A stretch of DNA of 64,000 bases. Source: a virus. A model generated the notes under the pieces. That model ran no database searches. It was not told the DNA's origin and worked only from the letters and a program-made list of their open reading frames with translations. Location of the stretch: the IMG/VR virus record IMGVR_UViG_3300020473_000016; one strand, 5' to 3'. Each line of letters begins with the position of its first letter. Within the stretch, counting starts at the first letter, position 1. This document shows positions 28,728 through 64,000 of this stretch, piece after piece. Made by a program: the position numbers and the translations under genes.

Positions 28728-28755
28728 AAAATGCTTTGATTTGTTTGACTCTTTA

Positions 28756-29286: not shown

Positions 29287-29314
29287 TAAAGAGTAAAGCA
29301 ATTCACTTCATTTC

Positions 29315-29492: not shown

Positions 29493-29514
29493 CATGCCCA
29501 AAAAAAGAACGGTC

Positions 29515-29697: not shown

Positions 29698-29703
29698 ATA
29701 CTC

Positions 29704-29762
29704 ATTATACACACACAACAGACCCAAATAGGAAAAATGTGTGCCAGTTTCTCAACTGTCTT
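29704..29762 (-). promoter_or_regulatory. Palindrome promoter P7
   Basis: gtgccagtt-tctc-aactgtctt (29741-29762); 31-bp gap; TATAAT. Confidence 0.75.
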
Positions 29763-44314: not shown

Positions 44315-47300
44315 TTAATATGCTCGAATCATATACTTCACTAAATGATACCTCGTAACGAGTGGAATGTCAACCTCTGGTTGCAAACTGGGTGTAACAT
44401 TTAACTTAACAGCAGATGACAGGGTGAATTTACCATCATTCACAGTGATACCAGCAGAGTTTACTGGGTCACCCTGTGGTGCGATAACTTCTTGTATAGA
44501 TTCTATACCTAGATCTAATCTACCTGACTGTGTAGTATATGTTGTTACTTCACCTTCTGCATGTATCATTGATACCTTAGCAATACCATAGTTATCTAAG
44601 TTTTCATTACCTGATGCTGATCTACTCTGTCTTACTTCCATTATTAAATTAGAAACTCTATATGTAGTAGGAATAGCAACATCTACATTTTCCCATGTAG
44701 TAGCACCACCACTGGTTGATATAGTTCCAAACTTAACATAACTACCACCACCATCATTACTACCAAATAGTTCTAATGGTGCAGTAGGTGACTCACCTCC
44801 ATTACTATCATTACCACGTATAACTTCAAATCGTACCGATTCTGTAACTGTACCAGCAGTATTACTACTACTAGCATTATATGTTATAGTTCTAGCCCAA
44901 CGTTCTTGAGGAGTTCCTCTGAATCTTAAATATTTTTGTGTATCTGGAGATACGAAACCACCATTACTTCCACTACCAGTACCACTATCAACATAATCAC
45001 ATCCATCACTAGATCTATCAAATAATCCTACAGTCTGACTAGTACCTGTTGTTGGGTTAGAAGAAGTGAGGACACCATATCCAATACGTCCATCACCATC
45101 TTGGTTACCATTACCAATATACATTGTACCAGAAGGAACACTAGTACCAGAGAGATTGTCTAACATGAAATCAAAATAACATCCTGATCCACCACCACCT
45201 CCACCAGGTCCATACTCTGTAGTATTCTGGTTGGTTGTTATCTTAACGTAACCATCAGTACCATCTATTTCTTGTCCAATATTTACATCACCACCATTAT
45301 TAGCATCACCTTCACTAATAATACTCTGACCTGACACCAATGAAGACTGTCCTCTAGAAGCACCGAAACCTGGTTTAACAGCGTTGGATCCGTTTCCAGC
45401 ACCTCCACCACCACCGATACCAGCACCAGATCCGACACCACCGCCTCCGCCTCCTCCGCCACCACCAGTACAGACGGAGTTGTTACCATTACCACCAGAA
45501 CCAGCGAAGCATCCAGCGACTAATTGAAAAGCATCATTATTAGGATTTGGTTGACCATTCATAGATGATAGTTGTGTGCCATCTCCAGCAGCACCTCCAC
45601 CACCTCCTCCACCAGCACCGATGAGAGGACCAGAACCAATACCAATAGCAGAGGAGCCACCTCCTCCACCTCCTCCTCCACCGCCAGTACCGCTACCGCC
45701 GTTACCACCGTCAGAGAATCCTTTACCACCTGTACCTGGATTTCTACCACTACCAGATGTTCCTTTTTCACCAACCCATATTTGTAAAGATTGTCCTGCA
45801 CCAGCATTTATACTTGCAAGAACATGTTTACCATCTCCACCATCACCAGCATACCAACCAGCACCACCATCACCAGTACCACCTGATCCACCACCAGCAC
45901 CTTTTAATTCAGCATTGACTTGGCTAACAGGATAGTTACTTGGAATACTATATGAAATAGAAGTACCACCAGTATTGGTAGTCCATTCCGAAATTGCATT
46001 CTGTGATCCAGTGAATAAAGTTCTAGATCCATCACCACCTGCACCATTTACAAAGATAGTAGCACCTCCAATACCTCCAGTTGATCCTGCACCACCAGCA
46101 GTACCTGCATTACCTTCAATATAATTGTTGACATTTATTGAAAGACCGCCTGTTAAACTAATAGCATTACCAATATCTGATACAGAAATATTTTGAGTCT
46201 GAACTAAACTACCACCAGAATATACTTCAACCTTTGCAGTACCACCAGCACCACCAGTTCCACCTGTCAGTAAATTCCATTTGCTTGTTGTTCCACCTGT
46301 ACATGTTGTTCTAGAATTAAATATGGTTGCACCAGTATCATTTCTTACTGCATTAAATGCAATACCACATGGGTTACTATCCCAATCATTTTGTGTGGAA
46401 CTGAGATTCTTAATTCTAAATTTTAACTGATTCCAACCAGGAGTAAATGTAGTTGCACCATTGGATTGCCCAACTGTCCAAGTTTTATCTCCTGTCCAAG
46501 GTGTAGATCCAGAGTTTACTGATGATGTTGCGTTACCATGCTGCCAACTTCCATCAGGTCTATACCAATCAAGTTCACACTGACCATCACATGCAAATTC
46601 AATTGTTACACCAGAAGTAGGAAAACCTGCTGGTACTTCAAAAGCAACACCACCTTCTACCCATTGTTCTAAGTAAGGGTCTGTAGAAGTACCTGATGGA
46701 GCAGTAATATAAATTGCATTGTTCAACATAAATGTTGACCACACACTAGCAGCACCAGCAGATATTTGTCCTGATCCTATCGCAACCCAATCTCTTGTTT
46801 GTAATAATTCATCAAAATCATTTCCTCCTTTACCACCACCAGCAATTACTTTATATTGATAACCATTAAGTGTTACTTGATAATAACTATCCAAACCATC
46901 AACACCAGAAATATTAGTAGATGCTCCTAATCCACCTGATCCAGTCATTCTACCAACAATATATTCTACTGGTTCTTGACTAGAAGTAGATGCAGGAATA
47001 GTATAACTACCACCAACATTTTGCTCACTAAACCATTCAGTATCTCCAAACTCAGTACCTGGAATAGTTATTGTTTTACCACCAATAACATAGTTATTAT
47101 CAATATCATAAACTGTAGGTGCTGGTGTAGTAATTGTAGTTGTTGGTTCTGAAGGGAAGTTACCAGCAGCATTATATGCTACTTCAACAATTATAGTTGC
47201 TGCATCGCCATTAGTTGTAATATCAACAGTATTATTTCTTAAAGCATTCCATTTAGATGTGGCTATCTTAACAGTATTATCATCAACCTTAACCACATAC

Positions 47301-49102: not shown

Positions 49103-50472
49103 TATACTTTAATTAGATAATCGACCATAGTAAAGGGAGCGATCAAACCATCCATTTTTCTGGTTTGATCTGGAGTAATCTGAATTGTAGATGACATACC
49201 ATCTGTACTAATAAAGAACTCATCAGTAACCAAATCATAATTGGTAGTACCTGTTGTGTATGTTATAGTATGATTATGTTCTGTTGGATCAGATTCATAT
49301 CCCAAAGCATTAGTAACTTCAACAATGTTAGAAACCTGTGGATATACAGTACCAGCAACACCACCATCAACTACAGTATCGTATGGTAATACGTTTGCTG
49401 TAGATGCAGTATGTGAATAACCATTGTCACCTGTTTGTGGAATGTCATCATCATCCACACCAGCAGCACCAGTTATATAATTTGGTTGAATAGCAAGATC
49501 CGTAGAAGTACATCCCATAGATCTTTGACCTACAGGCCATGGTGCTGTAAAATAACATGAATTAGGAGTAGTATCAACTAATAATGGAATAATGCTAGGG
49601 TTTTGTCCAGCAATATTATCACCAGATTGTGTTGTTGCTTGGTTAGAAGGAACTAAACAGAATTGATCAAAATTAATACAAGCATTCTTACAAACACCAT
49701 AGTACTGGAAACTAGCAACAGTTCCTCCTGGAACATAATTTCCTGGAGTAAATTTAACTGATTCACCATATAATCTACAAGCTGGTTGTGCTTCCTGGTT
49801 TCCACCAGGTCCATCAACCATTGTATGATAATACCATTCATGAACACCTATTGTAGAAGCGTTCTTATAATAATTTAATTCAAACATATCATTACCAGCT
49901 CTTCTCTTAATCCTACATCTCCTAGTGGTGGTATAGTGAGCATGTGGTTGGAATGCATTGATAGCAACCACTTCATCATCAGTATATCTTGGTCTGGTAA
50001 ATGAAACTTGTCCTCTTAATGAGTTTGTTTGTGGTGGTACTCTAAACTGTCCTGTCAAATCTATCTCAGCAGTTGTTCCCACGTTGCTTGAGACTTGAAT
50101 ACCAACACCAGATTTATCTATTGTTTGTCCACCAGCATTAGTTACTTCTCTATCATTAATTACACCTTGATCGGATCCACTAGATCCTCTAATAAATTTT
50201 GATCTTAAATCTGGTACTTGGAATTGACTTGTTGAAAGGGTTTGATCTGGTTGTTTAAAGACACATGAATCTCCTAGTCCTAGAATTTCAGCAAGAGCAG
50301 GATATTGTGTTTCATTGTATATACTACCATCACATCTCAAATAACCAGCAGGTAATAATGTAGCACTTAAACCTGCTATTGGATCATTAACATCTAGTTC
50401 TCTACTAAATGCTATGATAGAACCTGTAGTAGTTCCTAATTTGTTTCTTTCTTCGGATAAAAATGCTGCCAT
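49102..50472 (-). CDS. Tail collar-domain (short fibre-like) protein
   Basis: GSIIAF...AGYLRCDGSIY....YPALAEILG...FQVPDLRSKFIRG. Confidence 0.85.
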   Translation of the reverse strand: MAAFLSEERNKLGTTTGSIIAFSRELDVNDPIAGLSATLLPAGYLRCDGSIYNETQYPALAEILGLGDSCVFKQPDQTLSTSQFQVPDLRSKFIRGSSGSDQGVINDREVTNAGGQTIDKSGVGIQVSSNVGTTAEIDLTGQFRVPPQTNSLRGQVSFTRPRYTDDEVVAINAFQPHAHYTTTRRCRIKRRAGNDMFELNYYKNASTIGVHEWYYHTMVDGPGGNQEAQPACRLYGESVKFTPGNYVPGGTVASFQYYGVCKNACINFDQFCLVPSNQATTQSGDNIAGQNPSIIPLLVDTTPNSCYFTAPWPVGQRSMGCTSTDLAIQPNYITGAAGVDDDDIPQTGDNGYSHTASTANVLPYDTVVDGGVAGTVYPQVSNIVEVTNALGYESDPTEHNHTITYTTGTTNYDLVTDEFFISTDGMSSTIQITPDQTRKMDGLIAPFTMVDYLIKV

Positions 50473-51674
50473 TAGAATGCCCTTATTATCATTATGACCG
50501 TTTGAGATGGTGTGTTGTTATCCATTACTATATTTAACGCACTATCAATGTTAGATACATTAACAGTATAAGATTGTACATTATTAATAGCAATATTTGA
50601 AGGTGGTCTCAGTCCAGCAGCAGTCATAGAAATATCAAATGAAAAATGATTATGCGGAGCAAGAGTTCCTTCTGTAAAATCTTCACCTGAATGACTTATA
50701 TTTGTTGGGTATGTAGTAGTCTGATCACCATTCAAATAGTTTACTCTACCCATAATATTTGTTGGTGGTGGAAAGACACCAGTGTGTCCAACCATTGAGT
50801 GTCCATAATTATAAGTGTCACTAAACTCAGGTGTATTACCACCTCCTTGTGGTAGAGTTCTTACTAAACCAGTTTCAGGTACAAGAGTCTTTGTTGCAGG
50901 GTCAAAAGTTAATGTTTGATCTGTTACAGGAAGAGTATTCTCATCATAATATGTGACAGATCCAGTACCATTAGCCCATCTATCAGGACTATCACCAGTA
51001 GCACCACTACCAGTTAAGTTAGCAGATTCATAATCAGGTGAACCACTTACTTGATATGCAGATGTTTCAAATACCTGTACATATTTACCCTCAGTTTGAG
51101 CAGTTGTATATTGACCTGGATGTCTATGAGCAGGTGTATGATCTATACCTAATTTTCTACCAATAACATAATATGTTTTAGACCATGTAGGATCATTAAG
51201 AGTAAACTCAGTGATTCTACCTGCCATGTTATTAAGAACTGCCATATTAAATGTTATGTCAGTATCAGCACTGTAGATAGCAGGTGGTGTTACAGCAGTA
51301 CCATCACCATCTATTAAATCACCAACAACATTATTTGCGTCAGGTTGACCATACTGATACTTACCTTCCAATAACATAGACCTTTCAACGTCTACCATTG
51401 CCCTACCATTTAAGTCAGGGACACGAAAAATATCAGAAGCTTCATAATCTGGAAACTGACCTTTAATTCCAGTATCACTAGGACCATAGGTATTACCTAT
51501 CATAGATGCTAGTAATGGATAATCCTCAGCAGGATGTGTGTTTCCATCACATAGTATCCACCCATGTGGTACATTAGGGGGATTAGAACCCCTAAGCGTT
51601 GAATTACCTCCCCATGGCATTATAGTGCCAATGGGGGCGTTCTTCATTGTTTTGACTCTGTTGTAAAATGCCAT
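50472..51674 (-). CDS. Tail collar-domain (short fibre-like) protein
   Basis: PIGTIMPWGG...GWILCDG....YPLLASMIG...FRVPDLNGR; start moved to MAFYNRVK (TAATG coupling). Confidence 0.85.
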   Translation of the reverse strand: MAFYNRVKTMKNAPIGTIMPWGGNSTLRGSNPPNVPHGWILCDGNTHPAEDYPLLASMIGNTYGPSDTGIKGQFPDYEASDIFRVPDLNGRAMVDVERSMLLEGKYQYGQPDANNVVGDLIDGDGTAVTPPAIYSADTDITFNMAVLNNMAGRITEFTLNDPTWSKTYYVIGRKLGIDHTPAHRHPGQYTTAQTEGKYVQVFETSAYQVSGSPDYESANLTGSGATGDSPDRWANGTGSVTYYDENTLPVTDQTLTFDPATKTLVPETGLVRTLPQGGGNTPEFSDTYNYGHSMVGHTGVFPPPTNIMGRVNYLNGDQTTTYPTNISHSGEDFTEGTLAPHNHFSFDISMTAAGLRPPSNIAINNVQSYTVNVSNIDSALNIVMDNNTPSQTVIMIIRAF

Positions 51675-54600
51675 TATAGTTCTGTTAACCACCAACCTTG
51701 ATATGCAGCAGGAATAAAGTTATTTCCGTCTGACGAACCTACGAATATTAATCCGAAGGAAGCATTCTTATTCTGGATCACGAGTTCACCTGATCCATAT
51801 GGTGTGGACAATCCACCCAACTTAGTACCCTCAGTATCACCTTGAATTGCAACTGGTTCTCCATTTACGATTGGAGCACGTACAACTAGAGAGTTGTTAT
51901 AAGTTAGTGAACCACCAACCTCAGTAAATCTAATGATGTCTCCTGTTTCAGGAGTAGATGGTAATGTTAATACCAATGCACCTGTAGAAGGAGCAACAGC
52001 AACAATATAATTTACATTACTTGTAATGTTAGCATTGCTGTTAACGAATGTAGACTTATGTCCACCATTCTTATTCTTCCAACCAGTGTAACCAAAGGCA
52101 TCAATAGAACAATCTTGATTGATTGTATAACCCTTAGTACCACCATCACCTAATTGTCTTACTGTTAGTATTTGCTGTGTACTTGAAGCAGTTGTAGCAG
52201 GAATACCAGCAACATCTAGTAAGCGACCAACATATGTATCACCATATTCAGGTTCAACACGGAATGTTGGATTAAATGTTTTATTAGTAAACTGAATTGC
52301 ATCAGGATCCTCAACACACTTACTTGGGAATACTCTTAGGAATCCACTTATGTCTGTAGCAGCATTAACAACTAACTTACCAGCTTCAAAGTGATGTTCA
52401 TCGTTATTCTGTATTGTTAAGATAGGTACGTTATTATCAGTACCCATGATGTCAAAGGAAGATCCAATGAACTTAACATCATCATATACTGTTAGACGAC
52501 CATGATGGAAGTTCTTCTTAACCATCTGGATACCACCATCAGTTGTGGCAGTATTGGTTACTTCAAAGATCTCATCACCTATCAATAATGCATAGAAACG
52601 ATCTAAGAAGAATGGAACTACATCAGAGTTCTTGACATTAACAGCGACAACTGAAGTTCCTGTACTTGGAATTGCATCCTCTAATACAGTTGTTTCTCTG
52701 GTAAGAACTCTCCATACAGTTTCACCATCAGAGTGTGTCTTAGCAGCACCAGGCCAGTTAGCAACGTTGTTAACACGAGTTACAGGTAAGTAACCAGCAG
52801 TACCAGATGTTACAACTGGAGTACCAGACACCTGCATGAATTCTTCATTACCACCAGATCCATAACCAACTAAGATAAAGTCATTGATAGCAAAATCTGT
52901 GACGTTATCAACTGTTAGTTGTGTTGCTGTTGTGCTTATTGGAGTTACAGTATCAACGAATGTTGTTGCAATTCCGTTATCAACTTTAGGATCCTTAAGT
53001 ACTGTGTAAACTGTAGCACCTTTAGCATGTGCAGCAGCAGTTGTACCCCACTTAGATCTTACAGTATAGATTGTACCACTTGGATTACCAAGTACAGTAT
53101 CACCACTGCAAGCATCAATACTAAAGACATCACGTACACGGTCAGTTATACTAAACTTCTCGTTAACAGATGCTCTGAGTGTTGCACCAGTAGCAGTACC
53201 AGCACCACCAAACGCTACGTTAAGTGTAACAGTACTACCAACAATACTTACGATCTGAGGATCAGTTTGTCTTGTTTGACCACCAGTAGTTACAAACTGG
53301 TTCTGTTCTAATGTTACAGCACCACCGTTACTACTCAACTCTACATAATCACCAACTTCAAGTCCTTGTGTGTTAGTGACGTTGGTAATAGTTGTAAGAT
53401 TTGCTTGAATATCACCAACAATGAATCCATCACCATTAGCAGTTTCTTTCCATGCAGTCTTACATCCACCAATGAAGTTCAATGAACCGTTAACAGTTAA
53501 CTTACCATTCTCTCCATCAACACCATCATTACCAACTATTACATTACCAGTTACAGTATCAACCTCGAACAATACGTTACCAGGACATCCATCAAGAACT
53601 TGGAAGTTCTTATTGTTCTGTGTAAGAGGTGTTGCAAGTTTGAATACTTCACCTTGATCAAAGATTCCGTTACCGTTAGTATCTTCACGATCAATAATAA
53701 CGTAATCTCTCTGTGTTTGTAATGTTCCACCGAATGATGCTAGGTAGATATTTTCCTGAACACCAGATGCATCAATTGCTTGCTCTGTCCAAGTACCATC
53801 AAATGCAATATTACACTTGTAGATTGGAGTCTTAGTAGTTAAAGTATCAGGATGATTAGTCTTAATTGCTGTGTAAGTACCAAGTGGTTGTCTCTGAACT
53901 GTTACGATATAAGGAGCAGAAGTTGCACCAGCTAATCCACCAGGTATAATCCTTACAATTTCAGGATGTGTTCCTGCATTAACATCTAATGGTGCGTCAA
54001 GGATCATATAATCCCCTTCAGCAAAGTAACTACCAGGATCAACTTCAAGTGGTAAGTAATACTGATCTCCACTTAGAGCAGGTAGATCTGTACCGCCAGG
54101 TCCCTCTCCAACTCTAAGTGCTTGCCATGTAGTTCCACCCCATTGTCCTGCACCAGTAGTATCAAGACGGTTCCAACCAGATTGTGATTGAGTTAACTCT
54201 AGTACGTTAATAATATCAACGTTCTTATTGTAGTTACCTACACCTAAGATACCGCTTGCGTGAGCAAATGCAGTAGATCCTAATGCTGCTCTATTACCAA
54301 TGAAGGAGAATGCAGCAGTACCACCACATAGTTTGACACTACCGTTAAGTGTTGTCTCACCATCAACTTCAAAGTTGTTTCTAACTGTAGTTGATCCACC
54401 TTGACCAGCAATATTAATTTCAGAAGCATTTAAACCAAAATCAATAGTCTGTGTGTTACCTGAGAAGAATGAAACAATACCTGCTTCAGTGTTAAGAGTT
54501 ACGGTCTGTTCTGGTTGTGTTCTATCACCACCAAGTATCTTGTCTGCACCAAATGTTGCGTCACCTGCGTAGGATACCTTTCTATTTCCAAACTTAACAT

Positions 54601-57600
54601 AGGATAGTGATTCGTTGTTACCGTATGCACCACCAATTTCAATCTTAGAAATGTTAGTTGCGGTATCAGCAATAGCACCAAAGAAGATGTTACTGTCAAC
54701 AGAAGCACTACCAATCTTGATAGTTTGTTGTCCTGTTACTGAATCACCAATGTCGATTGTCTGAGCTGCTGTTGTAGTATCACCAAGTGTTAATGCAGTT
54801 GCATCACCAGCAATATTAACTGTGGTTGCAGTAGTATTAACAACATTGAATGTTGTAGAAGCAGTAGTAAGATCTCCACCATCAATCTGAACATCTAGAT
54901 CAAATAGAGCATTACCAGTGAAATTAGAGGTTCCATTAACATATAAACCATAAGTAGATAGATTTGTATCTGTTGCATTGATACCAACCTGTCCAGTACC
55001 TACAGTATTAGAGGTCTTAACCCTTAATGTTGCTTGATTAAGAGGATTATCTGCATCACCACCAACTAGGAATGCATCAGCACGACCAGCCTTAGTACGA
55101 CTAGCAAACTCTGGCTCAGTTAAGAAGTCTGTAGTTGTTGTACCACTAATGAATGCACTACCAACAACATCTAAGTTTGCTCTAGGATTAGTATATGTAT
55201 CAACAAATCCAGTCGCATGAGAATCATGTGATGCTCTTGTGACAGTGTTAATACCGACTCTATAATCACCTATAGAACCAGCACCAGATGCTAGAGTGTT
55301 TCTAACAAGAGTTCTGATTGCATCAGCACCAACAACACCTAGTTCCTTAAATTCAGAAGTAGATACATATAATTTCGCTGAAGCATTTTGAGAAATAATT
55401 GTTGTCCAACTTATAACAGCCTGTGCCTGTGCAGTAGTTACTTGGAAGTGAACATAGTTATTTGCAGGGTCAAATGCATCTCCAGAAGGTGAGTAAACAG
55501 GCCAACCTTGAGGGATGTTTATTAATGAAACTGGGTAGTTAGTGAATCTAATTCTAGAAGCACTTGTAATACCAAGTGAAGAGTTAGATAACTGAACACC
55601 ACTTGCTTCAAATGTTAATTTAACTACGTTACTACCATCAAATGTTATTGTGAATATATTTGATCCTGCAATTTCACTGAAGTAGTTGGCATATATCCAA
55701 CCAAGTGATCCAGATTCTCCAACCTCATCACCCTTAAGTAGAATGTCACCAGACGTAGGCTGAACACCACCGTAAGAAATATCCTGATTAGAATTAATTC
55801 TAGTACCACCAGCATTAACCATGCTTGTCTGGTTAGGTGTCATATTTGTTGGAGCACCAGCAGAAGTGGTGTGGGTCTGAATCATATAATTCTGACCATC
55901 ACCTCTGGCGTTAAATCCAAATACAGCAGCATCTACTCTGTTCTTACTGATACGAATATCTCCTTTCGTAGCAGGAGTGAAGCTAGTTCTATCAAGACCT
56001 TCATCCTGTTCTAATAGAGTAACAGGATCAGTAGGACTTACATTAGAACGTATAATAAGTACGTCTCTATTCTGTATTAGATCATTATCTTGAACACTGA
56101 TTAATACAGGAGATTCAAATGTATTAACAAGACTTCCATTACCACCAACAACTGTTATATTCTGGTTGAATGTTACAGCAGTATCAAATGTGGTTACTAG
56201 ACCTCCTACTACGTCATCCTTATCTCCATCATCTTGTAGTGTAGCAGCGTCAAGGAAGGTCTCTTCGCCTGTGATAGCGTTGATCTTCTTGTTACCTATG
56301 TAAAGGTCTCCATTGGAGTTTAGACCTGTATAGAAGACTATACCACCATCTTGCTTCTTAGACTGAGCATAGAAGTCTTCAGTTGGTGTTAGTACAACTT
56401 CCTGTCTGATTGGAAGACCAGTTGAATAGTTACCTGGTCCGAAACCAAGATATTCAAACGTATGGTTACCTGCACGAGCAATAGATGGTCTACGGAATTC
56501 AACGTAGAACTTATCATCTGTCATTACTGTGCTTGTACCAGCAATAGGAATACGACGGTCTTCAGAACCAGATGTAGCATTACCACTCTGTGCCTGAACT
56601 GAGTAAGTATTCTCTATAAATGCTGATTGTCTAACTAGATCCTCAACACCTTCTCTTGTAGTAGAGTTCTTATAGTCGTTAACTGTAACTAAACCATGAG
56701 TATAGTTATCAGCAGCAGAATATGCTTGAGGTGGATCAACTAATCCAGCAAATACGTTTTTCTCTTCTGCTGTTGTACCAGACTTCTGGAACCAAAGAGG
56801 ATCGTTTCTGTAGTTTAGAGGATATAGTTTGCTAACTGGCTGGGAGAACTTGAAGCTCTTGAAGTTATTAACAACACCAGGTCCAGTTGGGAATGGAGAA
56901 ATGTTACCACGTAAGCAAGTTAGATAGTAAATACCTTCTTGCTGTCCGAAGATACGTTTCTGTAATGTCTCTACGTTAAAGATATAGAATGTATCTTCAA
57001 TGATACCTACATCATTTACACTATCAACGTAGTATTCAATACCAGCATCGTCAGTAATACGATCACCTGGTGTTATGGTGTAGACATTAGCACCATTTTG
57101 TCTGTAGTAGTACTCAGGATATCCCTTAGAGATAAGTCTCTTAAGTGGTAGTGACTTACCAAAGTCTTGATCCTCTACCATCTCAGCAAATACATTACCT
57201 TGTGTAAATCTTGTATTTGCAAAATCACTATACTCTAATTTTCCACCGCGGATATTTTTTAGGATTAGGTAGTGTGAACTTCCAACATTGTAATAAGCAT
57301 GTATATTAGCAAGACCAGAAGAATAACCAGTCCAACTAATTTCATTGGTGCTACTATTCTGTGTCTTATTCGCTACGAATGATCCACCTTGAGGAGCATC
57401 AATTCTAACAGTAGTGAAGATCTCATTCTTAAGACCAGGATAGTTAACAACATCAACTGCATGGTCAAAGACATTAAGTTCTAAGTACTTGATATTAGGA
57501 TCTAATGGATCTTCTACATAACGACCACTTTGAATAGTGGCTGTAATACCACTCGTAGTCTTAACAAATGCTCTATACTCAACACCAGCGTTAGTTAGAT

Positions 57601-60600
57601 CCTTCTTATATGGATCATACTTAGCAGGTACACTAAGTGAATTACTTGCGAAGTCTGCTTCAGTGTATCCAATGTACTCATTCTGTTGTCTTGGGTTCTT
57701 GAATCTAGCACCGTATACTGATCCAGTTACAGGCTTAAGTACAATCTTCTGAGGTATTAACTTACGAGTATCGTCAGTTCTTCCCTTGATAACGAATCCA
57801 TTGATAGGATCTCTTGCGTTCTCAATATCTTTTGGAATAACATAACGTAACTTGTATGTTCTTTCATTTGCTTCACGCTGATCTTTAAGACGCTCATACC
57901 ACATATCAGTAGTACGAGGAGTAGATGACATATCTGTCTGTTTGATTCTCCAGATGATATTGTCATAGAAAACAGATGAAGGTTGACCAGTAACATCATC
58001 CTTAACTTTGATGTACCACTTACCTGAAGTAGTAACAGCATCAGTAAAGGTTGGATCAAATGCCATTGGTGATCTACGCTTGTTAGCATAGGTTGTAAAC
58101 TTAATACCAGTTTGACCAGGATCAAATGTAATTCTTACATCATTCAGTGCATCTGCCTTGCTTAGGTGGATGGTGAATACTCTATCATTTTGATAGCGAA
58201 CATAGAATGATACGTTAGGGTTAAGTCTACCGAAATCTGGGCTGGAACTATTTGTTACAGCAACATTAGGATTATTTGCAAATGATGTAGATACTAATGG
58301 TAGTTGTGATCCTTCTTCAGGTCTAAAGAATACTTGTTGAGCATCAGTAGAAGTAGATGGTTTGTCAACGATGTTTGGTATCTCTGTCTCAAATCCACCG
58401 TTACCAGAGAATGCAGAGGTTGTTGCTAAGTTAGTTCTATATGAATGTAGATCATATGAATCATCTAATACAAACTGATAGATATCAATCTCTACATCAG
58501 GATCAACAGAAGTTGTTTCAGATGCATAGATGTAGATACCAGCAGCAGCATTCTCTCTAGATGTTGCAAGCATCAACTTAGTTTGGTCACTACCATCGAA
58601 GTAGGTTCCACCACTATAATCAATAGGTGATGTAGTTCTACCTGGAGAAATTACATAGTATGTTCTGTTAGTTTCAAATCCATTAGGTAGTCTAACAACA
58701 CGCTTATCAACATCAACATATTTCTTAGTTACAGTATCAAAACGAGGACGTGGAACCAACCTTACTGGTGTTCCTGTCTCGAAGTTATGTGCGTTAGATG
58801 ATCCAGTACCAGTTGTATCAATAGTGAATACTGTTGCTCTGGAAGCAAGTAATGATGTGTTAACTGTCTGCTCTTGACGAGTAACTGATCCAAGACCACT
58901 ACTAATGATAGTAGTAATGTTACCAATTAATGTGTTAATAGCAGCAGCAGTTGCAGCACACTCAGCGTTGCTAGAGTTAGTTGTTGAGTCTCTAGTAATA
59001 TCTCTGTCAGCATCAGTAACAGGTCCGATTACTTTAGTATCAGGTAATGTATCAGCCCATGCACCCTCACTATATGTGAAGTATAGATTGATTGAACTGC
59101 TACTTAGGATAGCATTAACAGTATTTCCTGTTACTAACTTAGATCCTTTAACACCCAATTCAATCTGAGTGTTGCTAACAATTCTCTTAACGTATGTTCC
59201 TTCAGGAATGGTTGTGTATATTGGTGTAACACCAGAAGACTTAAGTACACCTTGCTCATAAGGTGATACTCCAGACTCATCATATTCAACAACACTCATA
59301 CCGATAACCATACCGCTTGAGTCATTAACATCGACTATGGCAGATCCAGCAGTAGTTGTACAGTTGAATGCCAAGAAGTCAAAGTTCCTCATAGCTGCGG
59401 TACACATGTTACCGACATAGTTCCAAGCATCAATAGTCTCAGATGCTTGACCATCAACGAAGTCTAATTGAGCATTAACAAAGTATGCTTCACCAGCCTG
59501 TACACTGTTGATGTTACCACCAAGACGTAAGTCATTGACAACAGCATCTACGATGTAAGCAACGTCTCTGAAGCACTTAGAAGACTCATTGTTAATAGTA
59601 AAGTCACCCTTGTTAATTGTTGGTAGTCCATTAAGATTACCAGCAGTAATAGAATCTACAAGGATATCGAATAATGTTTCAATAGTATTTCTTACGTTAG
59701 CACAATCCCACTCACCATTGCTTACGCTAGGTAGATCATTAAGATTGCCAGCAAGTAAACTATCAGTAAAGACACCAATTAAAGTATCAACTGTAGAAAG
59801 AACCTCAGCACAATTACCTTGAGTATATGTGGTTGGTTGTGTTGGTTCTGTTCTTGTAATGCTGTTAAGGTTACCAACAGCAGCATCAGTACCTACACCC
59901 TGAATAATAATATCCATCAAGGTGTCTGTTGCTGATACCATAGAAGCACATGTAGGTGCATCAAATAGGTTGATCAATGTTAGATCTTTAACCTGTTGGT
60001 TAGTAGCATCAGGAGTCCAGTTGGTAGGTGTAACTGTTACGTTCTGAATTACATCTTCTACAACTGCTTTTACTTTCTTATAAACTTCAGCAACTTCTGT
60101 ACGCTCACTCTGTGGCATAAGAAGTGGAACACCATTGAAGTTATTAGTTACGAAACCATTACCTATATCATAGATCTTATGGTTACCACCATACTTCATG
60201 TTGTATGCTAAGTCTCTAACAACGTCATAAACGTCATCAAGACAATCTTGCTCTGTGTATCCAGCAGCAGGAGTATAAGAAGGATGAACTACCTTCATCT
60301 GTTCGTATGCTTCCTTAGCAATGAACTTAGAGTTAGCAAGAAGTAATACAGATACATCAGCATTAGCATCAGATACTATTGGTGGTTCACCAGTAGTGTC
60401 AGTAGTAATACTTGTATCTTTCTGTGATAGTTGGTTATTAATTGCAAGATTGATTTGATCTTGAATCTTATTCAAACCAACAACTGTTTGGTTAACCTCT
60501 CCTTGTACACCATTGCTTAGTAGTGCATTACCAGAGAAGTATGTCTTAAGATAAGAGATAGTGTACTCGTTACCACCGAACCAAAGATCTTGTGCTATAG

Positions 60601-63600
60601 CATCAATGATTCTACCTAAGTCTCTTCTACACTTAGTTTCATAGTTTGTAGAAGCATGGTTAGAATCGTATACATTGATAGCATTGATTGCTTCAGTGAT
60701 AATGTTATTCTTGTTAGCAAGTATAAGGTTGCGTGCATCCTTGTTACGGCTAGCATTTAGAGAAGAATCATCTCTAAAGATTGTAACTGCATTATTCTCA
60801 GCAGATACAAATGTGTGAGGATATTCACCACCTTGAATTACAAGTGCTCTCTCAATACCATTTGTTTGAGCAGATACAAATGTATGTGCAGTAGTATTTG
60901 TGGATGGAACATTCTTAAGAACTTGTACATCAAATGTATTTGAAGTTACATTAGAGATCTTTAACCACTTACCTGAAGATGGATCTGTTGCACGAGGATA
61001 AGTATGGTTTGTAGCATTACTATCCTGAGCACAAGTGAATGTTAGAGAGTTGTTTGCAATCTTAATATGCTCACCCTCTACAAAACCATGACCATTAACG
61101 GTCAATGTCATCACACCAGTAGAAGGATTGTAAACAGCATTAGTTGCTGTAGTTGTATTGCTGGTGTTAACGAATGTATGAGTGTAGTTACCTCCAGCGA
61201 TGACTGCTCCTGTTGCAGCAGATACAAATGTATGTGCTGTAGTATTAGAAGAAGTACCAACGTTAAGTGTAATACTATCTGAAGTTACAGATGCAATACT
61301 AATTGCAGTATCGTATGCAGGATCTCCAGATCTAGGATAGGTATGGTTAGTAGCATTGCTATCCTGATCACATGTAAATGTTAATGAGTTGTTACCTAGT
61401 TTTATAGATGTGCCAGCTGTAAGTGTGTGAGCACCAATTGTAAGTACCAAGACACCAGAGGTGGGATTGTAGGTAGCTCCACTAACATTGTAGTTAACAA
61501 TAGGAGATTGGCCAACGTTAACTGTGACTGTACCAGTCTGTCTTTCGAGTCCATTTGATGTAGCAGATACGAATGCATGAGTAGATGTTTCTGAAGTAGC
61601 ACCAACATTAACTTTGAATGTATCAGCAGTAACAGCAGAAATTTGTAACCACTTGCCACTTACAGGGTCAGTTGCTCTAGGATAAGTATGCTGAGAAGCA
61701 TTACCATCTAAAGCACAAGTCATTGTCAATGAATTGTCAGCGATCTTAACCATATCGCCATTAGCAAATCCATGAGCAGTGACTGTAAGAATTAATTCTC
61801 CAGTAGAAGGAGTATATGCAGCACCACTTACTGTATGATTTGTTGATCCAACTGCGGTAACATCTAATGCAGTGTTATACTTAGGATCAGTTGTTCTAGG
61901 ATAGGTATGGTTTGTACCATTATTATCCATACCACATGTAAAGGTTAAAGCATCTTTTGCTAACCTGATACTTGTTCCTACGTTAATAGTATGACTAGGA
62001 AGAGTAAGAACTAAGTCACCTGTTACAGGATTGTATGTGGCATTATTAATATCATATCCATTTGCCTGTGTCTTACCAACGTTAACAGTAATTGTATTGG
62101 TTGTAGTAGAACTAATAGGTAGTTTCTCACCATATACAGGATCAGTAGCACGAGGATATTTGTGCTGTGTAGCGTTGTTATCTTGAGCACATGTGAATGT
62201 TAATGAATCTGCATTAATGCTAAGTGAATCACCTGCTTTCTCGATACCATTAGCAGTTGCAGATACAAAGTTATGTGGATAGTTACCACCAGTTGTAATG
62301 GCATTAGCATTAGCACCAGCCCAAACATGAGTGTATGTTCCACCAGTCTTAACAGAACTTGCAACAGCACTAACAAATGAGTGTGCAGTTGTGTTAGAAG
62401 ATACACCAATGAATAACTTTATAGTACCACTCTGCTTGATTAATCCATTAGTGGATGCAGAAACAAATGAGTGTGTGTACTGGTCATTAACACCAGAGAT
62501 ACCTACATTAACTTCAAATGTATTTGCAGTCTTATTAGCAACAGTTAACCACTCATCATATGATGGGTCTGTTGTACGTGGGTAACTATGGTTAGTTGCG
62601 TTACTATCTTTAGAACATGTAAATGTTAGAGATTCCTTAGCAAACTTAATCTTGTCACCGTTGTTTAATCCATGACCATTAAGAGTTAATACCATTACAC
62701 CACTAGCAGGTGTATAAGTTGCACCAGTTACAGTAGCAGTTGTAGTACCAACTTCCTCAATGTAGATAGAGTTGTCATAGAATGGGTCTTTCTTATATGA
62801 TAGACCATTAGCACTTGCACTTACAAATGTATGTGCAGTTACGTTAGTAGAAGGTTGTTGTGCTAGTACTTGTACTTGGAAAGTATTTGTTTGTACATTA
62901 AAGATCTTCAACCACTTACCACTTACAGGGTCGGATGCTCTTGGATATGTGTGGTTAGTATTGTTACTGTCTTGAGCACAAGTAAATGTTAATGAATCAT
63001 CTGCTAACTTGATTTGCTCACCATTATTAAATCCATGATTAGCAATAGTTAGTTCTAAGATACCAGTAGTAGGATTGTAGTCTGCATCAGTTACAGTTGC
63101 AGTCTCTACAGTAGTTCTAGGATAACTGTGGTTAGTTGCGTTACCATCCTGAGCACAGGTAAAGGTTACAGCACCATCAGCTAACTTGATACTATCATTA
63201 GGTTTAGTAATACTGTTGGCAGCAGCAGAAACAAAACTATGTGTAGTTGTGTTTGTAGAAGGTACTGCGGCTAATACTTGTACATCAAATGTATCTGTAG
63301 TTACACCACTAATCTCTAACCATGAACCACTTACAGGGTCAGTAGCACGAGGATATGAGTGGTTAGTACCATTACTATCTTGATCACAAGTAAAGGTTAA
63401 AGCACCATCATCAATTCTAACTTTCTCTCCATTCTGGAAACCATGTCCAGCAACAGTGATTGTAATAATACCTGTATTAGGATTATAGTTAGCAGCAGTT
63501 GGTGTATATCTATCAGCACCACGTAGATTATGCTGACCAATGGTTAGTTCCATCAAACCTGTTGTAGGTACAAAGGAAGCATTGGAAGGAGTATATTCTA

Positions 63601-64000
63601 CAAGAGGTGATGCTCCAACATTAACTGTTATACTATTTGAAGTAGTTCCTGTAATCTGTATTGCTTCACCAGATACAGGGTCAGTTAGTCTTGGATATGA
63701 ATGAACTGAAGAATAGTCATCCATTGAGCAGGTAAACTTCAATGAGTTATCTGCAATCTTAATGAATGTACCAGTCTGTAAAGTGTGACTACCTATTAGT
63801 AATTCTAGATCACCTGTGGTAGCATTGTAAGTACCTTGTTGAGGAGTGAAGTTAACAGTAGGAGATGCTCCAACGTTTACATCAACTGTATTCGTTGTTG
63901 CTCCTGTAATTGTTAACCATGCTCCACTAGCAGGGTCGGATGCTCTAGGATAAGTATGATTAGTATAATCTCCATCCATTCCACATGTGAATGTTAGAGA
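51674..64000 (-). CDS. Giant tail-fibre-like protein, C-terminal >4,100 aa (start beyond window end)
   Basis: The frame stays open from 64000 (SLTFTCG before the track Met); multiple repeat families. Confidence 0.8.
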   Translation of the reverse strand, partial: SLTFTCGMDGDYTNHTYPRASDPASGAWLTITGATTNTVDVNVGASPTVNFTPQQGTYNATTGDLELLIGSHTLQTGTFIKIADNSLKFTCSMDDYSSVHSYPRLTDPVSGEAIQITGTTSNSITVNVGASPLVEYTPSNASFVPTTGLMELTIGQHNLRGADRYTPTAANYNPNTGIITITVAGHGFQNGEKVRIDDGALTFTCDQDSNGTNHSYPRATDPVSGSWLEISGVTTDTFDVQVLAAVPSTNTTTHSFVSAAANSITKPNDSIKLADGAVTFTCAQDGNATNHSYPRTTVETATVTDADYNPTTGILELTIANHGFNNGEQIKLADDSLTFTCAQDSNNTNHTYPRASDPVSGKWLKIFNVQTNTFQVQVLAQQPSTNVTAHTFVSASANGLSYKKDPFYDNSIYIEEVGTTTATVTGATYTPASGVMVLTLNGHGLNNGDKIKFAKESLTFTCSKDSNATNHSYPRTTDPSYDEWLTVANKTANTFEVNVGISGVNDQYTHSFVSASTNGLIKQSGTIKLFIGVSSNTTAHSFVSAVASSVKTGGTYTHVWAGANANAITTGGNYPHNFVSATANGIEKAGDSLSINADSLTFTCAQDNNATQHKYPRATDPVYGEKLPISSTTTNTITVNVGKTQANGYDINNATYNPVTGDLVLTLPSHTINVGTSIRLAKDALTFTCGMDNNGTNHTYPRTTDPKYNTALDVTAVGSTNHTVSGAAYTPSTGELILTVTAHGFANGDMVKIADNSLTMTCALDGNASQHTYPRATDPVSGKWLQISAVTADTFKVNVGATSETSTHAFVSATSNGLERQTGTVTVNVGQSPIVNYNVSGATYNPTSGVLVLTIGAHTLTAGTSIKLGNNSLTFTCDQDSNATNHTYPRSGDPAYDTAISIASVTSDSITLNVGTSSNTTAHTFVSAATGAVIAGGNYTHTFVNTSNTTTATNAVYNPSTGVMTLTVNGHGFVEGEHIKIANNSLTFTCAQDSNATNHTYPRATDPSSGKWLKISNVTSNTFDVQVLKNVPSTNTTAHTFVSAQTNGIERALVIQGGEYPHTFVSAENNAVTIFRDDSSLNASRNKDARNLILANKNNIITEAINAINVYDSNHASTNYETKCRRDLGRIIDAIAQDLWFGGNEYTISYLKTYFSGNALLSNGVQGEVNQTVVGLNKIQDQINLAINNQLSQKDTSITTDTTGEPPIVSDANADVSVLLLANSKFIAKEAYEQMKVVHPSYTPAAGYTEQDCLDDVYDVVRDLAYNMKYGGNHKIYDIGNGFVTNNFNGVPLLMPQSERTEVAEVYKKVKAVVEDVIQNVTVTPTNWTPDATNQQVKDLTLINLFDAPTCASMVSATDTLMDIIIQGVGTDAAVGNLNSITRTEPTQPTTYTQGNCAEVLSTVDTLIGVFTDSLLAGNLNDLPSVSNGEWDCANVRNTIETLFDILVDSITAGNLNGLPTINKGDFTINNESSKCFRDVAYIVDAVVNDLRLGGNINSVQAGEAYFVNAQLDFVDGQASETIDAWNYVGNMCTAAMRNFDFLAFNCTTTAGSAIVDVNDSSGMVIGMSVVEYDESGVSPYEQGVLKSSGVTPIYTTIPEGTYVKRIVSNTQIELGVKGSKLVTGNTVNAILSSSSINLYFTYSEGAWADTLPDTKVIGPVTDADRDITRDSTTNSSNAECAATAAAINTLIGNITTIISSGLGSVTRQEQTVNTSLLASRATVFTIDTTGTGSSNAHNFETGTPVRLVPRPRFDTVTKKYVDVDKRVVRLPNGFETNRTYYVISPGRTTSPIDYSGGTYFDGSDQTKLMLATSRENAAAGIYIYASETTSVDPDVEIDIYQFVLDDSYDLHSYRTNLATTSAFSGNGGFETEIPNIVDKPSTSTDAQQVFFRPEEGSQLPLVSTSFANNPNVAVTNSSSPDFGRLNPNVSFYVRYQNDRVFTIHLSKADALNDVRITFDPGQTGIKFTTYANKRRSPMAFDPTFTDAVTTSGKWYIKVKDDVTGQPSSVFYDNIIWRIKQTDMSSTPRTTDMWYERLKDQREANERTYKLRYVIPKDIENARDPINGFVIKGRTDDTRKLIPQKIVLKPVTGSVYGARFKNPRQQNEYIGYTEADFASNSLSVPAKYDPYKKDLTNAGVEYRAFVKTTSGITATIQSGRYVEDPLDPNIKYLELNVFDHAVDVVNYPGLKNEIFTTVRIDAPQGGSFVANKTQNSSTNEISWTGYSSGLANIHAYYNVGSSHYLILKNIRGGKLEYSDFANTRFTQGNVFAEMVEDQDFGKSLPLKRLISKGYPEYYYRQNGANVYTITPGDRITDDAGIEYYVDSVNDVGIIEDTFYIFNVETLQKRIFGQQEGIYYLTCLRGNISPFPTGPGVVNNFKSFKFSQPVSKLYPLNYRNDPLWFQKSGTTAEEKNVFAGLVDPPQAYSAADNYTHGLVTVNDYKNSTTREGVEDLVRQSAFIENTYSVQAQSGNATSGSEDRRIPIAGTSTVMTDDKFYVEFRRPSIARAGNHTFEYLGFGPGNYSTGLPIRQEVVLTPTEDFYAQSKKQDGGIVFYTGLNSNGDLYIGNKKINAITGEETFLDAATLQDDGDKDDVVGGLVTTFDTAVTFNQNITVVGGNGSLVNTFESPVLISVQDNDLIQNRDVLIIRSNVSPTDPVTLLEQDEGLDRTSFTPATKGDIRISKNRVDAAVFGFNARGDGQNYMIQTHTTSAGAPTNMTPNQTSMVNAGGTRINSNQDISYGGVQPTSGDILLKGDEVGESGSLGWIYANYFSEIAGSNIFTITFDGSNVVKLTFEASGVQLSNSSLGITSASRIRFTNYPVSLINIPQGWPVYSPSGDAFDPANNYVHFQVTTAQAQAVISWTTIISQNASAKLYVSTSEFKELGVVGADAIRTLVRNTLASGAGSIGDYRVGINTVTRASHDSHATGFVDTYTNPRANLDVVGSAFISGTTTTDFLTEPEFASRTKAGRADAFLVGGDADNPLNQATLRVKTSNTVGTGQVGINATDTNLSTYGLYVNGTSNFTGNALFDLDVQIDGGDLTTASTTFNVVNTTATTVNIAGDATALTLGDTTTAAQTIDIGDSVTGQQTIKIGSASVDSNIFFGAIADTATNISKIEIGGAYGNNESLSYVKFGNRKVSYAGDATFGADKILGGDRTQPEQTVTLNTEAGIVSFFSGNTQTIDFGLNASEINIAGQGGSTTVRNNFEVDGETTLNGSVKLCGGTAAFSFIGNRAALGSTAFAHASGILGVGNYNKNVDIINVLELTQSQSGWNRLDTTGAGQWGGTTWQALRVGEGPGGTDLPALSGDQYYLPLEVDPGSYFAEGDYMILDAPLDVNAGTHPEIVRIIPGGLAGATSAPYIVTVQRQPLGTYTAIKTNHPDTLTTKTPIYKCNIAFDGTWTEQAIDASGVQENIYLASFGGTLQTQRDYVIIDREDTNGNGIFDQGEVFKLATPLTQNNKNFQVLDGCPGNVLFEVDTVTGNVIVGNDGVDGENGKLTVNGSLNFIGGCKTAWKETANGDGFIVGDIQANLTTITNVTNTQGLEVGDYVELSSNGGAVTLEQNQFVTTGGQTRQTDPQIVSIVGSTVTLNVAFGGAGTATGATLRASVNEKFSITDRVRDVFSIDACSGDTVLGNPSGTIYTVRSKWGTTAAAHAKGATVYTVLKDPKVDNGIATTFVDTVTPISTTATQLTVDNVTDFAINDFILVGYGSGGNEEFMQVSGTPVVTSGTAGYLPVTRVNNVANWPGAAKTHSDGETVWRVLTRETTVLEDAIPSTGTSVVAVNVKNSDVVPFFLDRFYALLIGDEIFEVTNTATTDGGIQMVKKNFHHGRLTVYDDVKFIGSSFDIMGTDNNVPILTIQNNDEHHFEAGKLVVNAATDISGFLRVFPSKCVEDPDAIQFTNKTFNPTFRVEPEYGDTYVGRLLDVAGIPATTASSTQQILTVRQLGDGGTKGYTINQDCSIDAFGYTGWKNKNGGHKSTFVNSNANITSNVNYIVAVAPSTGALVLTLPSTPETGDIIRFTEVGGSLTYNNSLVVRAPIVNGEPVAIQGDTEGTKLGGLSTPYGSGELVIQNKNASFGLIFVGSSDGNNFIPAAYQGWWLTEL
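60780..64000 (-). repeat. Eleven nested copies of a ~100-aa protein domain
   Basis: 11 copies of TC-x2-D-x5-H-x-YPR; 9 opening (Y.P.TG...LT...H-like) and 11 closing (H.FV-like) segments. Confidence 0.85.

What the first reader, a model, noticed from the sequence alone, without database searches (positions are those of the whole stretch)
60780..64000. Recursively nested (tree-like) domain architecture in the giant fibre
Seen: the ~100-aa domain (opening A.Y.P.TG.L.LT...H, core LTFTC..D....H.YPR..DP, closing H.FVSA..N) is not a simple tandem repeat. Whole copies are inserted inside other copies, and closing segments stack like brackets (three in a row at ~62230-62400). The 11 cores parse as Y[X[a[b[c,d,e]]], f[g,h,i]], five levels deep with several distinct insertion loops. 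For example, YPRT is separated from its ..DP continuation (KKDPFYD) by a full copy. Eleven closers versus nine openers predicts at least two openers beyond 64000. Inference: a branched, antenna-like polypeptide grown by intragenic self-insertion, possibly multivalent for sugars or metals (invariant Cys, Asp, His). I do not know of a described case this deep.
Basis: partly seen in the sequence, partly recalled or inferred. Interest (0 to 1): 0.82.

Follow-up and report, generated by a model that had tools for sequence, protein, structure and literature searches.

The report
Self-nested beta-barrel tree in cyanophage fibre
A giant virion fibre protein of an uncultured marine T4-like cyanophage carries eleven copies of one small beta-barrel domain inserted inside each other's loops, five levels deep, which gives a tree-shaped rather than bead-like polypeptide that I could not find described anywhere.

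Summary
Window 60780-64000 (minus strand) encodes part of a 4991-aa fibre protein. It holds 11 copies of a 96-residue domain.

- **Split copies:** Six copies are contiguous. Five are split by whole copies inserted in four loops.
- **Profile tiling:** A profile built from contiguous copies tiles the region in complementary pieces.
- **Splice test:** Spliced in silico, all five split domains match the profile end to end (95-126 bits, against 114-143 for contiguous copies).
- **Upstream prediction:** There are two.
- **My parse:** D7[D1[D2[D4[D3,D5,D6]]], D8[D9,D10], D11]. It is five levels deep.
- **Structure prediction:** AlphaFold2 folds one copy as an eight-strand beta-barrel (pLDDT 96). It folds the D8[D9,D10] sub-tree at pLDDT 90 and pTM 0.71, with the outer pieces confident and each insert on a two-strand stalk. 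No coordinates were returned, so reassembly of the outer barrel is inferred.
- **Relatives:** In 121 relatives, 81% of interrupted domains resume where they broke (29% after permutation). Depth reaches 8.
- **Closest folds:** E1 FCCH and the endosialidase beta-barrel, both weak matches and both themselves inserted domains.
- **Function:** Multivalent host adhesion, perhaps with a His/Cys/Asp/His metal clamp, is inference only.

First-stage notes of this scan report the same nesting in at least five other genomes. I found no paper describing it.

The parts
51674..64000 (-). In-window part (4108 aa) of a 4991-aa giant fibre protein. The start codon lies 883 codons beyond the window edge.
   Evidence: The backbone matches PHROG 4527 'short tail fiber protein' with E = 0.
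63854..64000 (-). D1, profile positions about 31-78. Its opener lies beyond the window edge. Level 2.
63602..63838 (-). D2, profile 3-77. Level 3. Inserted in the 78/79 loop of D1.
63512..63583 (-). D4 piece a, profile 1-24. Level 4.
63209..63493 (-). D3, a complete copy. Level 5. Inserted in the 21-24 loop of D4.
   Evidence: 136.9 bits
63110..63202 (-). D4 piece b, profile 22-52. Ends at YPRTT.
62801..63088 (-). D5, a complete copy. Level 5. Inserted in the 52/53 loop of D4. Absent from relative P0030.
62729..62794 (-). D4 piece c, profile 51-72. Begins KKDPFYD.
62441..62725 (-). D6, a complete copy. Level 5. Inserted in the 66-72 loop of D4.
62351..62431 (-). D4 piece d, profile 69-96 (strand 7 and the closer).
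62297..62341 (-). D2 closer (GGTYTHVWAGA).
   Evidence: The spliced D2 scores 99.7 bits over profile 3-96. HMMER does not detect this closer on its own.
62243..62296 (-). D1 closer (GGNYPHNFVSA), profile 79-96.
62060..62236 (-). D7 piece b, profile 22-78. D7 is the outermost domain. Its opener piece (profile 1-21) lies beyond the window, at residues 824-844 of the full protein.
61829..62050 (-). D8 piece a, profile 1-72. Level 2.
   Evidence: AlphaFold2 pLDDT 79-95 per 10-residue block.
61547..61825 (-). D9, a complete copy. Inserted in the 66-72 loop of D8.
61481..61546 (-). D8 piece b (strand 7, TGTVTVNVGQSP) plus the outgoing stalk to D10.
   Evidence: pLDDT 96 for residues 171-180, 82 for 181-190 of the model
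61202..61480 (-). D10, a complete copy. Inserted in the 78/79 loop of D8.
61142..61201 (-). Return stalk and D8 closer (GGNYTHTFVNT).
   Evidence: AlphaFold2 strand at model residues 293-295, pLDDT about 67-80.
60854..61141 (-). D11, a complete copy. Inserted in the 78/79 loop of D7. This is the copy folded alone.
   Evidence: 143 bits; pLDDT 96.4
60782..60841 (-). D7 closer (GGEYPHTFVSA). It closes a barrel whose opener is about 1100 residues upstream.
   Evidence: the spliced D7 scores 121.8 bits over profile 1-96

Best explanation
The region encodes a module of eleven homologous 96-residue beta-barrel domains. They are joined by recursive domain insertion, not head to tail.

**Shown**
- Each barrel has eight strands.
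- Whole copies, or whole sub-trees, sit in four inter-strand loops: after profile positions about 21-24, 52, 66-72 and 78.
- The polypeptide leaves a parent barrel, builds one or more child barrels, returns and finishes the parent.
- The topology is D7[D1[D2[D4[D3,D5,D6]]], D8[D9,D10], D11].
- The whole tree sits in a linker of the helical part of a 4991-aa fibre protein.

**Predicted (AlphaFold2)**
- One copy is a compact barrel.
- In the D8 sub-tree, the outgoing and returning linkers pair as two-strand stalks that carry the inserted barrels.

**Inferred**
- Outer barrels close only when their last strand is made. For D7 that is about 1100 residues after its first strand, so folding runs last-in-first-out.
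- His18, Cys37, Asp40 and His86 are kept in all eleven copies. They come from the opener, core and closer pieces, and may form a metal site that clamps the pieces of a split barrel.
- The tree displays many lectin-like barrels on the baseplate-proximal fibre for multivalent, low-affinity adhesion to the cyanobacterial surface.
- New leaves arise by copy-and-insert events.

My confidence is about 0.8 for the architecture and about 0.4 for the adhesion function.
For: **Sequence**
- Complementary profile tiling.
- The five spliced split domains score 95-126 bits end to end.
- There are 11 openers, 11 cores and 11 closers, with the two predicted upstream openers found.
- All eleven copies keep G9, H18, C37, D40, H46, YPR48-50, DP53-54 and H86, whether contiguous or split.

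**Comparative**
- P0030 lacks the D5 insert and its D4 reads through profile 21-72 in one piece. In P0016 and P0030 the D10 equivalent carries two further inserts.
- In 288 triplets from 121 homologues, 81% resume within 5 positions of the break, against 29% after permutation.
- Break sites cluster at 20-24, 52-55, 66-73 and 77-81.
- Iterative excision recovers 1123 complete domains. Of these, 459 are split, and depth reaches 8.

**Structure prediction**
- Single copy: pLDDT 96.4, pTM 0.85, eight strands. All four insertion sites fall between strands.
- D8[D9,D10], 307 aa: pLDDT 90.0, pTM 0.71. The outer pieces reach block means of 79-98 and keep the strand pattern of the single copy. The closer forms a strand at 293-295.

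**Closest folds are themselves inserted barrels**
- E1 FCCH: Z 8.7, rmsd 2.5 over 76 residues. phi92 endosialidase barrel: Z 7.9, rmsd 2.2 over 80 residues.
- Sub-threshold Pfam hits to the same two families, and an ESM Atlas neighbour cluster that carries E1_FCCH.

**Context**
- The gene is followed by three Collar-domain proteins and a tail assembly chaperone.
Against: - No coordinates or contact maps are returned, so pairing of each closer with its predicted core was not observed directly.
- The D8 closer has only moderate confidence (pLDDT about 67) and six alignment rows.
- Only one two-level sub-tree was modelled. The five-level branch was not.
- The fold search on the nest model matched only the contiguous inner barrels, so it gave no independent view of the outer barrel.
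- His46 is often Lys in relatives, which weakens a four-ligand site that includes it.
- No ligand, metal or host-binding test was possible.
- The structural matches (Z 5-9) lie in the range the tool calls common for small barrels.
Confidence: 0.8

Rival explanations
1. Domain swapping in a trimeric fibre. The pieces are genuine parts of barrels, but an opener and core from one chain are completed by a closer from a neighbouring chain. The nesting seen in sequence would then be an intertwined trimer, not a tree within one chain.
For: Phage fibres are usually trimers with intertwined strands (established knowledge of T4 gp12, gp34 and gp37). The closers are short single strands, and the D8 closer has the lowest confidence in the monomer model.
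Against: The monomer folds at pLDDT 90 and pTM 0.71 without partner chains, with stalks pairing the outgoing and returning linkers of the same chain. The strict stack order of the pieces is what an intrachain return needs, and swapping does not require it.
Confidence: 0.08
2. Beads with orphan strands. Only contiguous copies and the long 1-78 pieces fold. The short resumed pieces and the stacked closers are linkers or a separate small sheet. The order that looks like balanced brackets is a by-product of partial duplications.
For: Several closers are too weak for HMMER to detect alone (D2 and D8). A naive stack parser on raw fragments is only moderately better than permutation (47% against 29%).
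Against: Spliced domains score as well as contiguous ones over the whole profile. Resumption coordinates match break coordinates in 81% of triplets. The conserved His86 of each closer is kept in all eleven copies. The split arrangement is kept in orthologues at 55-94% identity. AlphaFold2 puts the resumed pieces in confident strands.
Confidence: 0.05
3. The architecture is nested but the role is purely structural. The tree would be a rigid, protease-resistant spacer or strut that sets fibre geometry or thickness, with no ligand binding by the barrels.
For: pTM 0.71 for three domains suggests fixed relative orientations through the two-strand stalks. The S-RSM4 orthologue has helical repeats instead of the module at the same place, as if the two were interchangeable filler. 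The conserved residues could be purely structural.
Against: Copy number and topology vary strongly between close relatives, which is typical of host-interaction parts. The nearest structural analogue in a phage protein, the endosialidase barrel, is known from the literature to bind sugar (my own knowledge, not tested here).
Confidence: 0.3

Closest known systems
Beta-barrel domain of phage endosialidases (K1F, phi92; Pfam PF12195 End_beta_barrel)
   Same: A small closed beta-barrel in a phage tail protein that is itself inserted into another domain. It is the best or near-best structural match. For the single copy: Z 5.4, rmsd 2.5 over 72 residues, Foldseek probability 0.98 at E 0.17. For the copy with its stalk: Z 7.9, rmsd 2.2 over 80 residues, 18% identity. 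Four of 53 copies give sub-threshold Pfam hits.
   Different: A single copy inserted in a different fold (a propeller). It is never inserted into itself. No Pfam hit reaches threshold. The Cys/His/YPR/DP signature is not a described feature of that family, as far as I know.
FCCH domain of ubiquitin-activating enzyme E1 (Pfam PF16190)
   Same: An inserted beta-barrel of about 80-90 residues on a two-strand connection. It is the top structural match to the nest model: 4p22_B, Z 8.7, rmsd 2.5 over 76 residues. Eight of 53 copies give sub-threshold Pfam hits. Several homologues carry precomputed PF16190 hits. An ESM Atlas neighbour cluster, 91% viral, carries it.
   Different: A eukaryotic enzyme context with one copy per protein and no recursion. 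The window's own copies do not reach any Pfam threshold.
Heterotypic nested insertions such as the integrin beta subunit (PSI / hybrid / beta-I) and pilus adhesin RrgA (from my own knowledge, not checked here)
   Same: A domain within a domain within a domain, with each parent completed after its child.
   Different: About three levels, each level a different fold, with a fixed topology. Here one fold is reused 11 times, five levels deep (up to eight in relatives), in several loops, and the topology varies between relatives.
Sandwich-barrel hybrid motif (SBHM) repeats in lineage-specific insertions of bacterial RNA polymerase beta-prime (from my own knowledge, not checked here)
   Same: A small beta domain repeated inside an insertion. 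As I recall, one copy can be interrupted by others.
   Different: Shallow nesting, a cytoplasmic enzyme, an unrelated sequence family, and no tree of this depth or variability described, to my knowledge.
Ig-like decoration domains on phage virions (Hoc, BACON and similar)
   Same: Small beta domains multiplied on virion proteins, thought to give weak multivalent adhesion.
   Different: Arranged in tandem or as single insertions. Not recursively nested.

Membership tests
Nested (discontinuous) domain insertion | The parent domain is interrupted by a complete domain and resumes at the same point. | tested here: met
   The profile fragments are complementary to within 3 positions for D1, D2, D4, D7 and D8. 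In 81% of 288 triplets from relatives, the domain resumes within 5 positions of the break.
Nested (discontinuous) domain insertion | The parent pieces together make one full domain. | tested here: met
   Spliced domains score 95-126 bits over profile 1-96 (D8 over 1-93), against 114-143 bits for contiguous copies.
Nested (discontinuous) domain insertion | The insertions lie in surface loops of the parent fold. | tested here: met
   The sites at 21-24, 52, 66-72 and 78 fall between strands E10-14 / E25-27, E45-48 / E59-61, E59-61 / E69-73 and E69-73 / E86-91 of the pLDDT-96 model.
Nested (discontinuous) domain insertion | The parent pieces reassemble in three dimensions. | tested here: inconclusive
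   The AlphaFold2 model of D8[D9,D10] has pLDDT 90 and pTM 0.71, with the outer pieces in confident strands. No coordinates were returned, and the fold search aligned only the inner barrels.
Pfam PF16190 E1_FCCH | Sequence match at the Pfam gathering score. | tested here: not met
   No family is reported for the window's D11. Eight of 53 copies match, with best E 0.005. The whole protein has no Pfam hit above its cut-off.
Pfam PF16190 E1_FCCH | The same fold. | tested here: inconclusive
   4p22_B gives Z 8.7, rmsd 2.5 over 76 residues, 13% identity. For the single copy, Z is 5.2. This lies within the range the tool calls common for small barrels.
Pfam PF12195 End_beta_barrel | Sequence match at the Pfam gathering score. 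| tested here: not met
   Four of 53 copies match, with best E 0.0073.
Pfam PF12195 End_beta_barrel | The same fold, and a sugar-binding site. | tested here: inconclusive
   For the fold, 4hiz_A gives Z 7.9, rmsd 2.2 over 80 residues. The binding residues could not be compared without coordinates.
PHROG 4527 ('short tail fiber protein') backbone | Profile match along the non-repeat parts. | tested here: met
   E = 0 for the N-terminal 814 aa and the middle part, and 1e-217 for the C-terminal part. The orthologue is S-RSM4 SRSM4_214.
T4 gp12-type short tail fibre | Phage Tail Collar domain, or another gp12 signature, in this protein. | tested here: not met
   There is no Pfam hit in any part of this protein. 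The Collar domain is in the three downstream genes instead. The name 'short tail fiber' is therefore an inherited label, not a tested identity.

The most novel reading that the evidence does not exclude
A protein domain family that inserts into itself recursively and builds tree-shaped polypeptides: five levels here, up to eight in relatives, with about 40% of all copies split. The trees sit on the virions of the ocean's dominant cyanomyoviruses. Each barrel would be clamped by a His/Cys/Asp/His metal site whose ligands can lie more than 1000 residues apart. Topology turns over between close relatives, which would make the tree an evolvable multivalent host-recognition antenna. That would be a new principle of protein architecture and of receptor-binding diversification, and an extreme case for folding (last-in-first-out closure of barrels).
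Probability: 0.45. Interest if true: 0.88.

Novelty: new variant of a known kind. Interest (0 to 1): 0.78.

Why it matters
Domain insertion is textbook knowledge, but the known cases are shallow and mix different folds. Here one fold is reused recursively to build a branched chain.

**Protein folding.** An outer barrel is completed by a strand made about 1100 residues after its first strand. It must wait for, or tolerate, ten other barrels folding inside it.

**Domain annotation.** Tools that assume contiguous domains will systematically miss or mis-split these proteins. About 40% of copies in 121 relatives are discontinuous.

**Phage biology.**
- The module occurs only in cyanophages among 50,697 phage records (332 records).
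- It sits in giant baseplate and fibre proteins.
- It changes topology between relatives at 55-80% identity, which is the behaviour expected of host-range determinants in Synechococcus and Prochlorococcus phages.

**Protein engineering.** It offers a natural scaffold with four permissive loops for building branched display proteins.

Tried and rejected
**Searches that found nothing useful**
- DNA tandem-repeat search: nothing relevant. The copies are 56-69% identical at DNA level.
- Megablast of the region against phage records, and an exact-word scan of viral contigs for the window edge: no match.
- No whole genome is held for this window. The upstream part came from the protein collection and its ENA contig.
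- PDB sequence searches with the region and with the N-terminal 814 aa: no hits. A profile search gave only spurious repeat-driven hits to iota-carbonic anhydrase and BurrH.

**Parsing methods that did not work well**
- A heuristic parser with a regex closer mis-closed D8 and left many leftovers in relatives. I did not use it for topology claims.
- A naive stack parse on raw fragments gave 47% matches against 29% permuted. Undetected short closers derail it, so I replaced it with the triplet test.
- A jittered-excision control for the iterative peel was confounded. Shifted excisions in tandem stretches create chimeric full-length copies, so it is not a valid null.

**Alignment problems before the second fold**
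- MAFFT piled single-domain rows onto one copy and misplaced closers. Alignments A2, A3, A5, A6 and A7 were discarded for that reason.
- Only A8, checked row by row, was folded.

**Checks that gave no answer**
- The fold search on the nest model matched only the inner barrels, so the ranges could not confirm the outer barrel.
- Split-barrel complementation with complex prediction (D1 core plus the D2/D1 closer peptide) returned no verdict. It counts neither way.
- A global alignment to the S-RSM4 orthologue did not give a clean indel. That protein has extra helical repeats where this one has the module.

**Literature**
- Seven searches found no description of the nesting.
Full report
**What the region is**

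The window comes from an uncultured marine T4-like cyanomyovirus.
- Its nearest named relative is Synechococcus phage S-RSM4, at 71% DNA identity over the gene's 3' part.
- The same sequence lies on a 105.7-kb metagenome contig, ENA ERZ909118.
- The finding lies in a minus-strand ORF, 51674..64000, that runs off the window.
- The protein collection holds the full-length form: P0005, 4991 aa, with 2 mismatches to the window part. The window begins at its residue 884.
- The non-repeat parts match PHROG 4527 and 529, both fibre proteins. No Pfam family reaches its cut-off and no solved structure matches by sequence.

**Checking the observation**

A motif scan found 11 cores and 11 closers in the window.

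I built a 96-position profile from six contiguous copies and rebuilt it from 547 non-identical contiguous copies in 121 homologues. Searched back, it tiles the region in complementary pieces. For D4 these are profile 1-24, 22-52, 51-72 and 69-96, with three complete copies between them.

When the predicted pieces of the five interrupted domains are joined in silico, each aligns to profile positions 1-96 (D8 to 1-93) at 95-126 bits. Contiguous copies score 114-143 bits.

The full-length protein has two, at residues 824-844 and 853-882, followed upstream by helical sequence.

My parse is D7[D1[D2[D4[D3,D5,D6]]], D8[D9,D10], D11]. It is five levels deep and uses four insertion loops.

No DNA-level tandem repeat exists. 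The copies are 34-70% identical in protein and 56-69% in DNA, so the events are old.

**Evidence from relatives**

Close relatives (94%, 81%, 55% and 44% identity) keep the D1[D2[D4[..]]] branch. There are two informative differences:
- P0030 lacks D5, and its D4 reads through profile 21-72 in one piece. This is a natural presence/absence of a whole domain at a loop.
- In P0016 and P0030, the D10 equivalent is itself split by two more copies.

Across 121 giant homologues:
- In 288 cases, a full copy is flanked by an open left piece and a resuming right piece. In 81% of them the domain resumes within five profile positions of the break. After permutation the mean is 29% and the maximum 37%.
- The breaks cluster in four places: 20-24, 52-55, 66-73 and 77-81.
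- Iterative excision of complete copies recovers 1123 domains. Of these, 459 appear only after their inserts are removed. Bracket depth reaches 8 in two proteins. That maximum comes from an automated parse and I did not verify it by hand.

On distribution:
- The S-RSM4 orthologue has no copy of the domain.
- In this window only this ORF carries it.
- In other cyanophages the module sits in gp7-like wedge proteins, which carry YHYH and Baseplate_wedge Pfam hits.
- The module is therefore a cassette found in different giant virion proteins.

**Structure prediction**

One copy (D11), folded with a 53-row alignment, gives pLDDT 96.4 and pTM 0.85. It has eight strands, and all four insertion sites fall between strands.

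For the nest I needed an alignment whose rows link the pieces correctly. MAFFT repeatedly misplaced short rows, so I harvested same-topology segments from 125 loci and checked the final alignment row by row.

The D8[D9,D10] sub-tree (window 61136-62056) then folds at pLDDT 90.0 and pTM 0.71.
- The outer pieces have block means of 79-98 and repeat the strand pattern of the single copy.
- The closer forms a short strand at lower confidence (about 67).
- The strand pattern is consistent with the outgoing and returning linkers forming two-strand stalks (E64-74 with E170-180, and E187-189 with E285-287). The pairing itself is my reading of the secondary-structure string.
- The tools give no coordinates, so closure of the outer barrel is inferred from confidence and strand state. 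It was not seen in contacts.
- A fold search on this model aligned only the inner barrels.

**What it resembles**

The best structural matches are the FCCH barrel of E1 enzymes (Z 8.7) and the beta-barrel of phage endosialidases (Z 7.9). Both are themselves inserted domains.

The same two Pfam families appear as sub-threshold sequence hits for 8 and 4 of 53 copies, alongside DUF7243 for 9 copies. An ESM Atlas neighbour cluster, mostly viral, carries E1_FCCH. None of these reaches a curated threshold. I treat them as the nearest fold relatives and do not claim family membership.

The family is narrow:
- 732 representatives among 1.84 billion proteins.
- 332 of 50,697 phage records, all of them cyanophages.

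**How it probably works**

The barrel evidently tolerates insertion in four loops, and a compact domain can be spliced into a loop on a short two-strand stalk.

All eleven copies keep His18, Cys37, Asp40, His46 and His86, along with the YPR and DP motifs. These residues come from the opener, core and closer pieces. A metal site that staples the pieces together is therefore an attractive explanation, but it is inference only. His46 is often Lys in relatives.

The gene sits with three Collar-domain proteins and a tail assembly chaperone. [quoted passage not shown] Topology turns over between close relatives. Taken together, these make multivalent host adhesion my preferred function (about 0.4). 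A purely structural strut is the main alternative (about 0.3).

**Novelty**

Seven literature searches found no description of this architecture.

From my own knowledge, nested insertions are known to about three levels and use different folds, as in integrin beta and RrgA. Shallow same-fold interruption occurs in RNA polymerase SBHM inserts. Recursion of a single fold to five to eight levels, with variable trees, would be a new extreme.

First-stage notes of this scan record the same pattern in at least five other genomes. That agrees with my survey of relatives, but I do not count it as independent evidence.

Noticed in passing
L002:5100-5440 and window 60500-60780 (residues about 733 and 2003 of the full protein): The nested module sits between helical units that carry a KC(K/R)RD(I/L)G...D..DGGN motif. 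Earlier notes of this scan read such units as phycobiliprotein-like, and several homologues carry precomputed PF00502 hits. Pfam found no PF00502 in this protein at E <= 0.01.
   Followed up: partly
window 44315-51695 (minus strand): Three consecutive genes directly downstream of the giant gene (1595, 456 and 407 aa) each carry a Phage Tail Collar domain. A tail assembly chaperone gene lies at 42820-43692. These, rather than the giant protein, look like the gp12-type fibres.
   Followed up: partly
window 1546-23760 (minus strand): A baseplate wedge cluster: gp6-like (21964-23760), a 3456-aa gp7-like giant with a YHYH domain (11594-21964), gp8-like (9728-11545) and a 2707-aa DUF4815 protein (1546-9669). 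None of them carries the nested domain in this phage, although gp7-like proteins of other cyanophages do.
   Followed up: partly
L002:1-2959 (just upstream of the gene, outside the window): Two 2OG-Fe(II) oxygenase genes (one of the prolyl-hydroxylase type), CpeT and a tryptophan halogenase-like gene come before the fibre gene. Similar oxygenases are scattered among the structural genes of S-RSM4. Whether they modify the invariant YPR/DP prolines of the barrels is an open idea.
   Followed up: no
window 24000-30000: G+C rises to 0.41-0.43 against about 0.35 elsewhere. There are no tRNA genes in the window. The cause was not examined.
   Followed up: no
L056, L067, L086, L061, L059, L058 (about 4990-5950 in each): In these relatives the D8-like domain has no closer between its second insert and the next copy, so the D11-like copy lies inside D8.
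   Followed up: partly
window 63209-63493, 62801-63088, 60854-61141: The leaves D3, D5 and D11 form a subtype (QVQVL...PSTNTTAH, 64-70% identical). They sit in three different loops of two different parents, as if one source copy had been pasted repeatedly.
   Followed up: partly
window 37642-38583 (minus strand): An N6/N4 DNA methylase gene lies among the structural genes.
   Followed up: no
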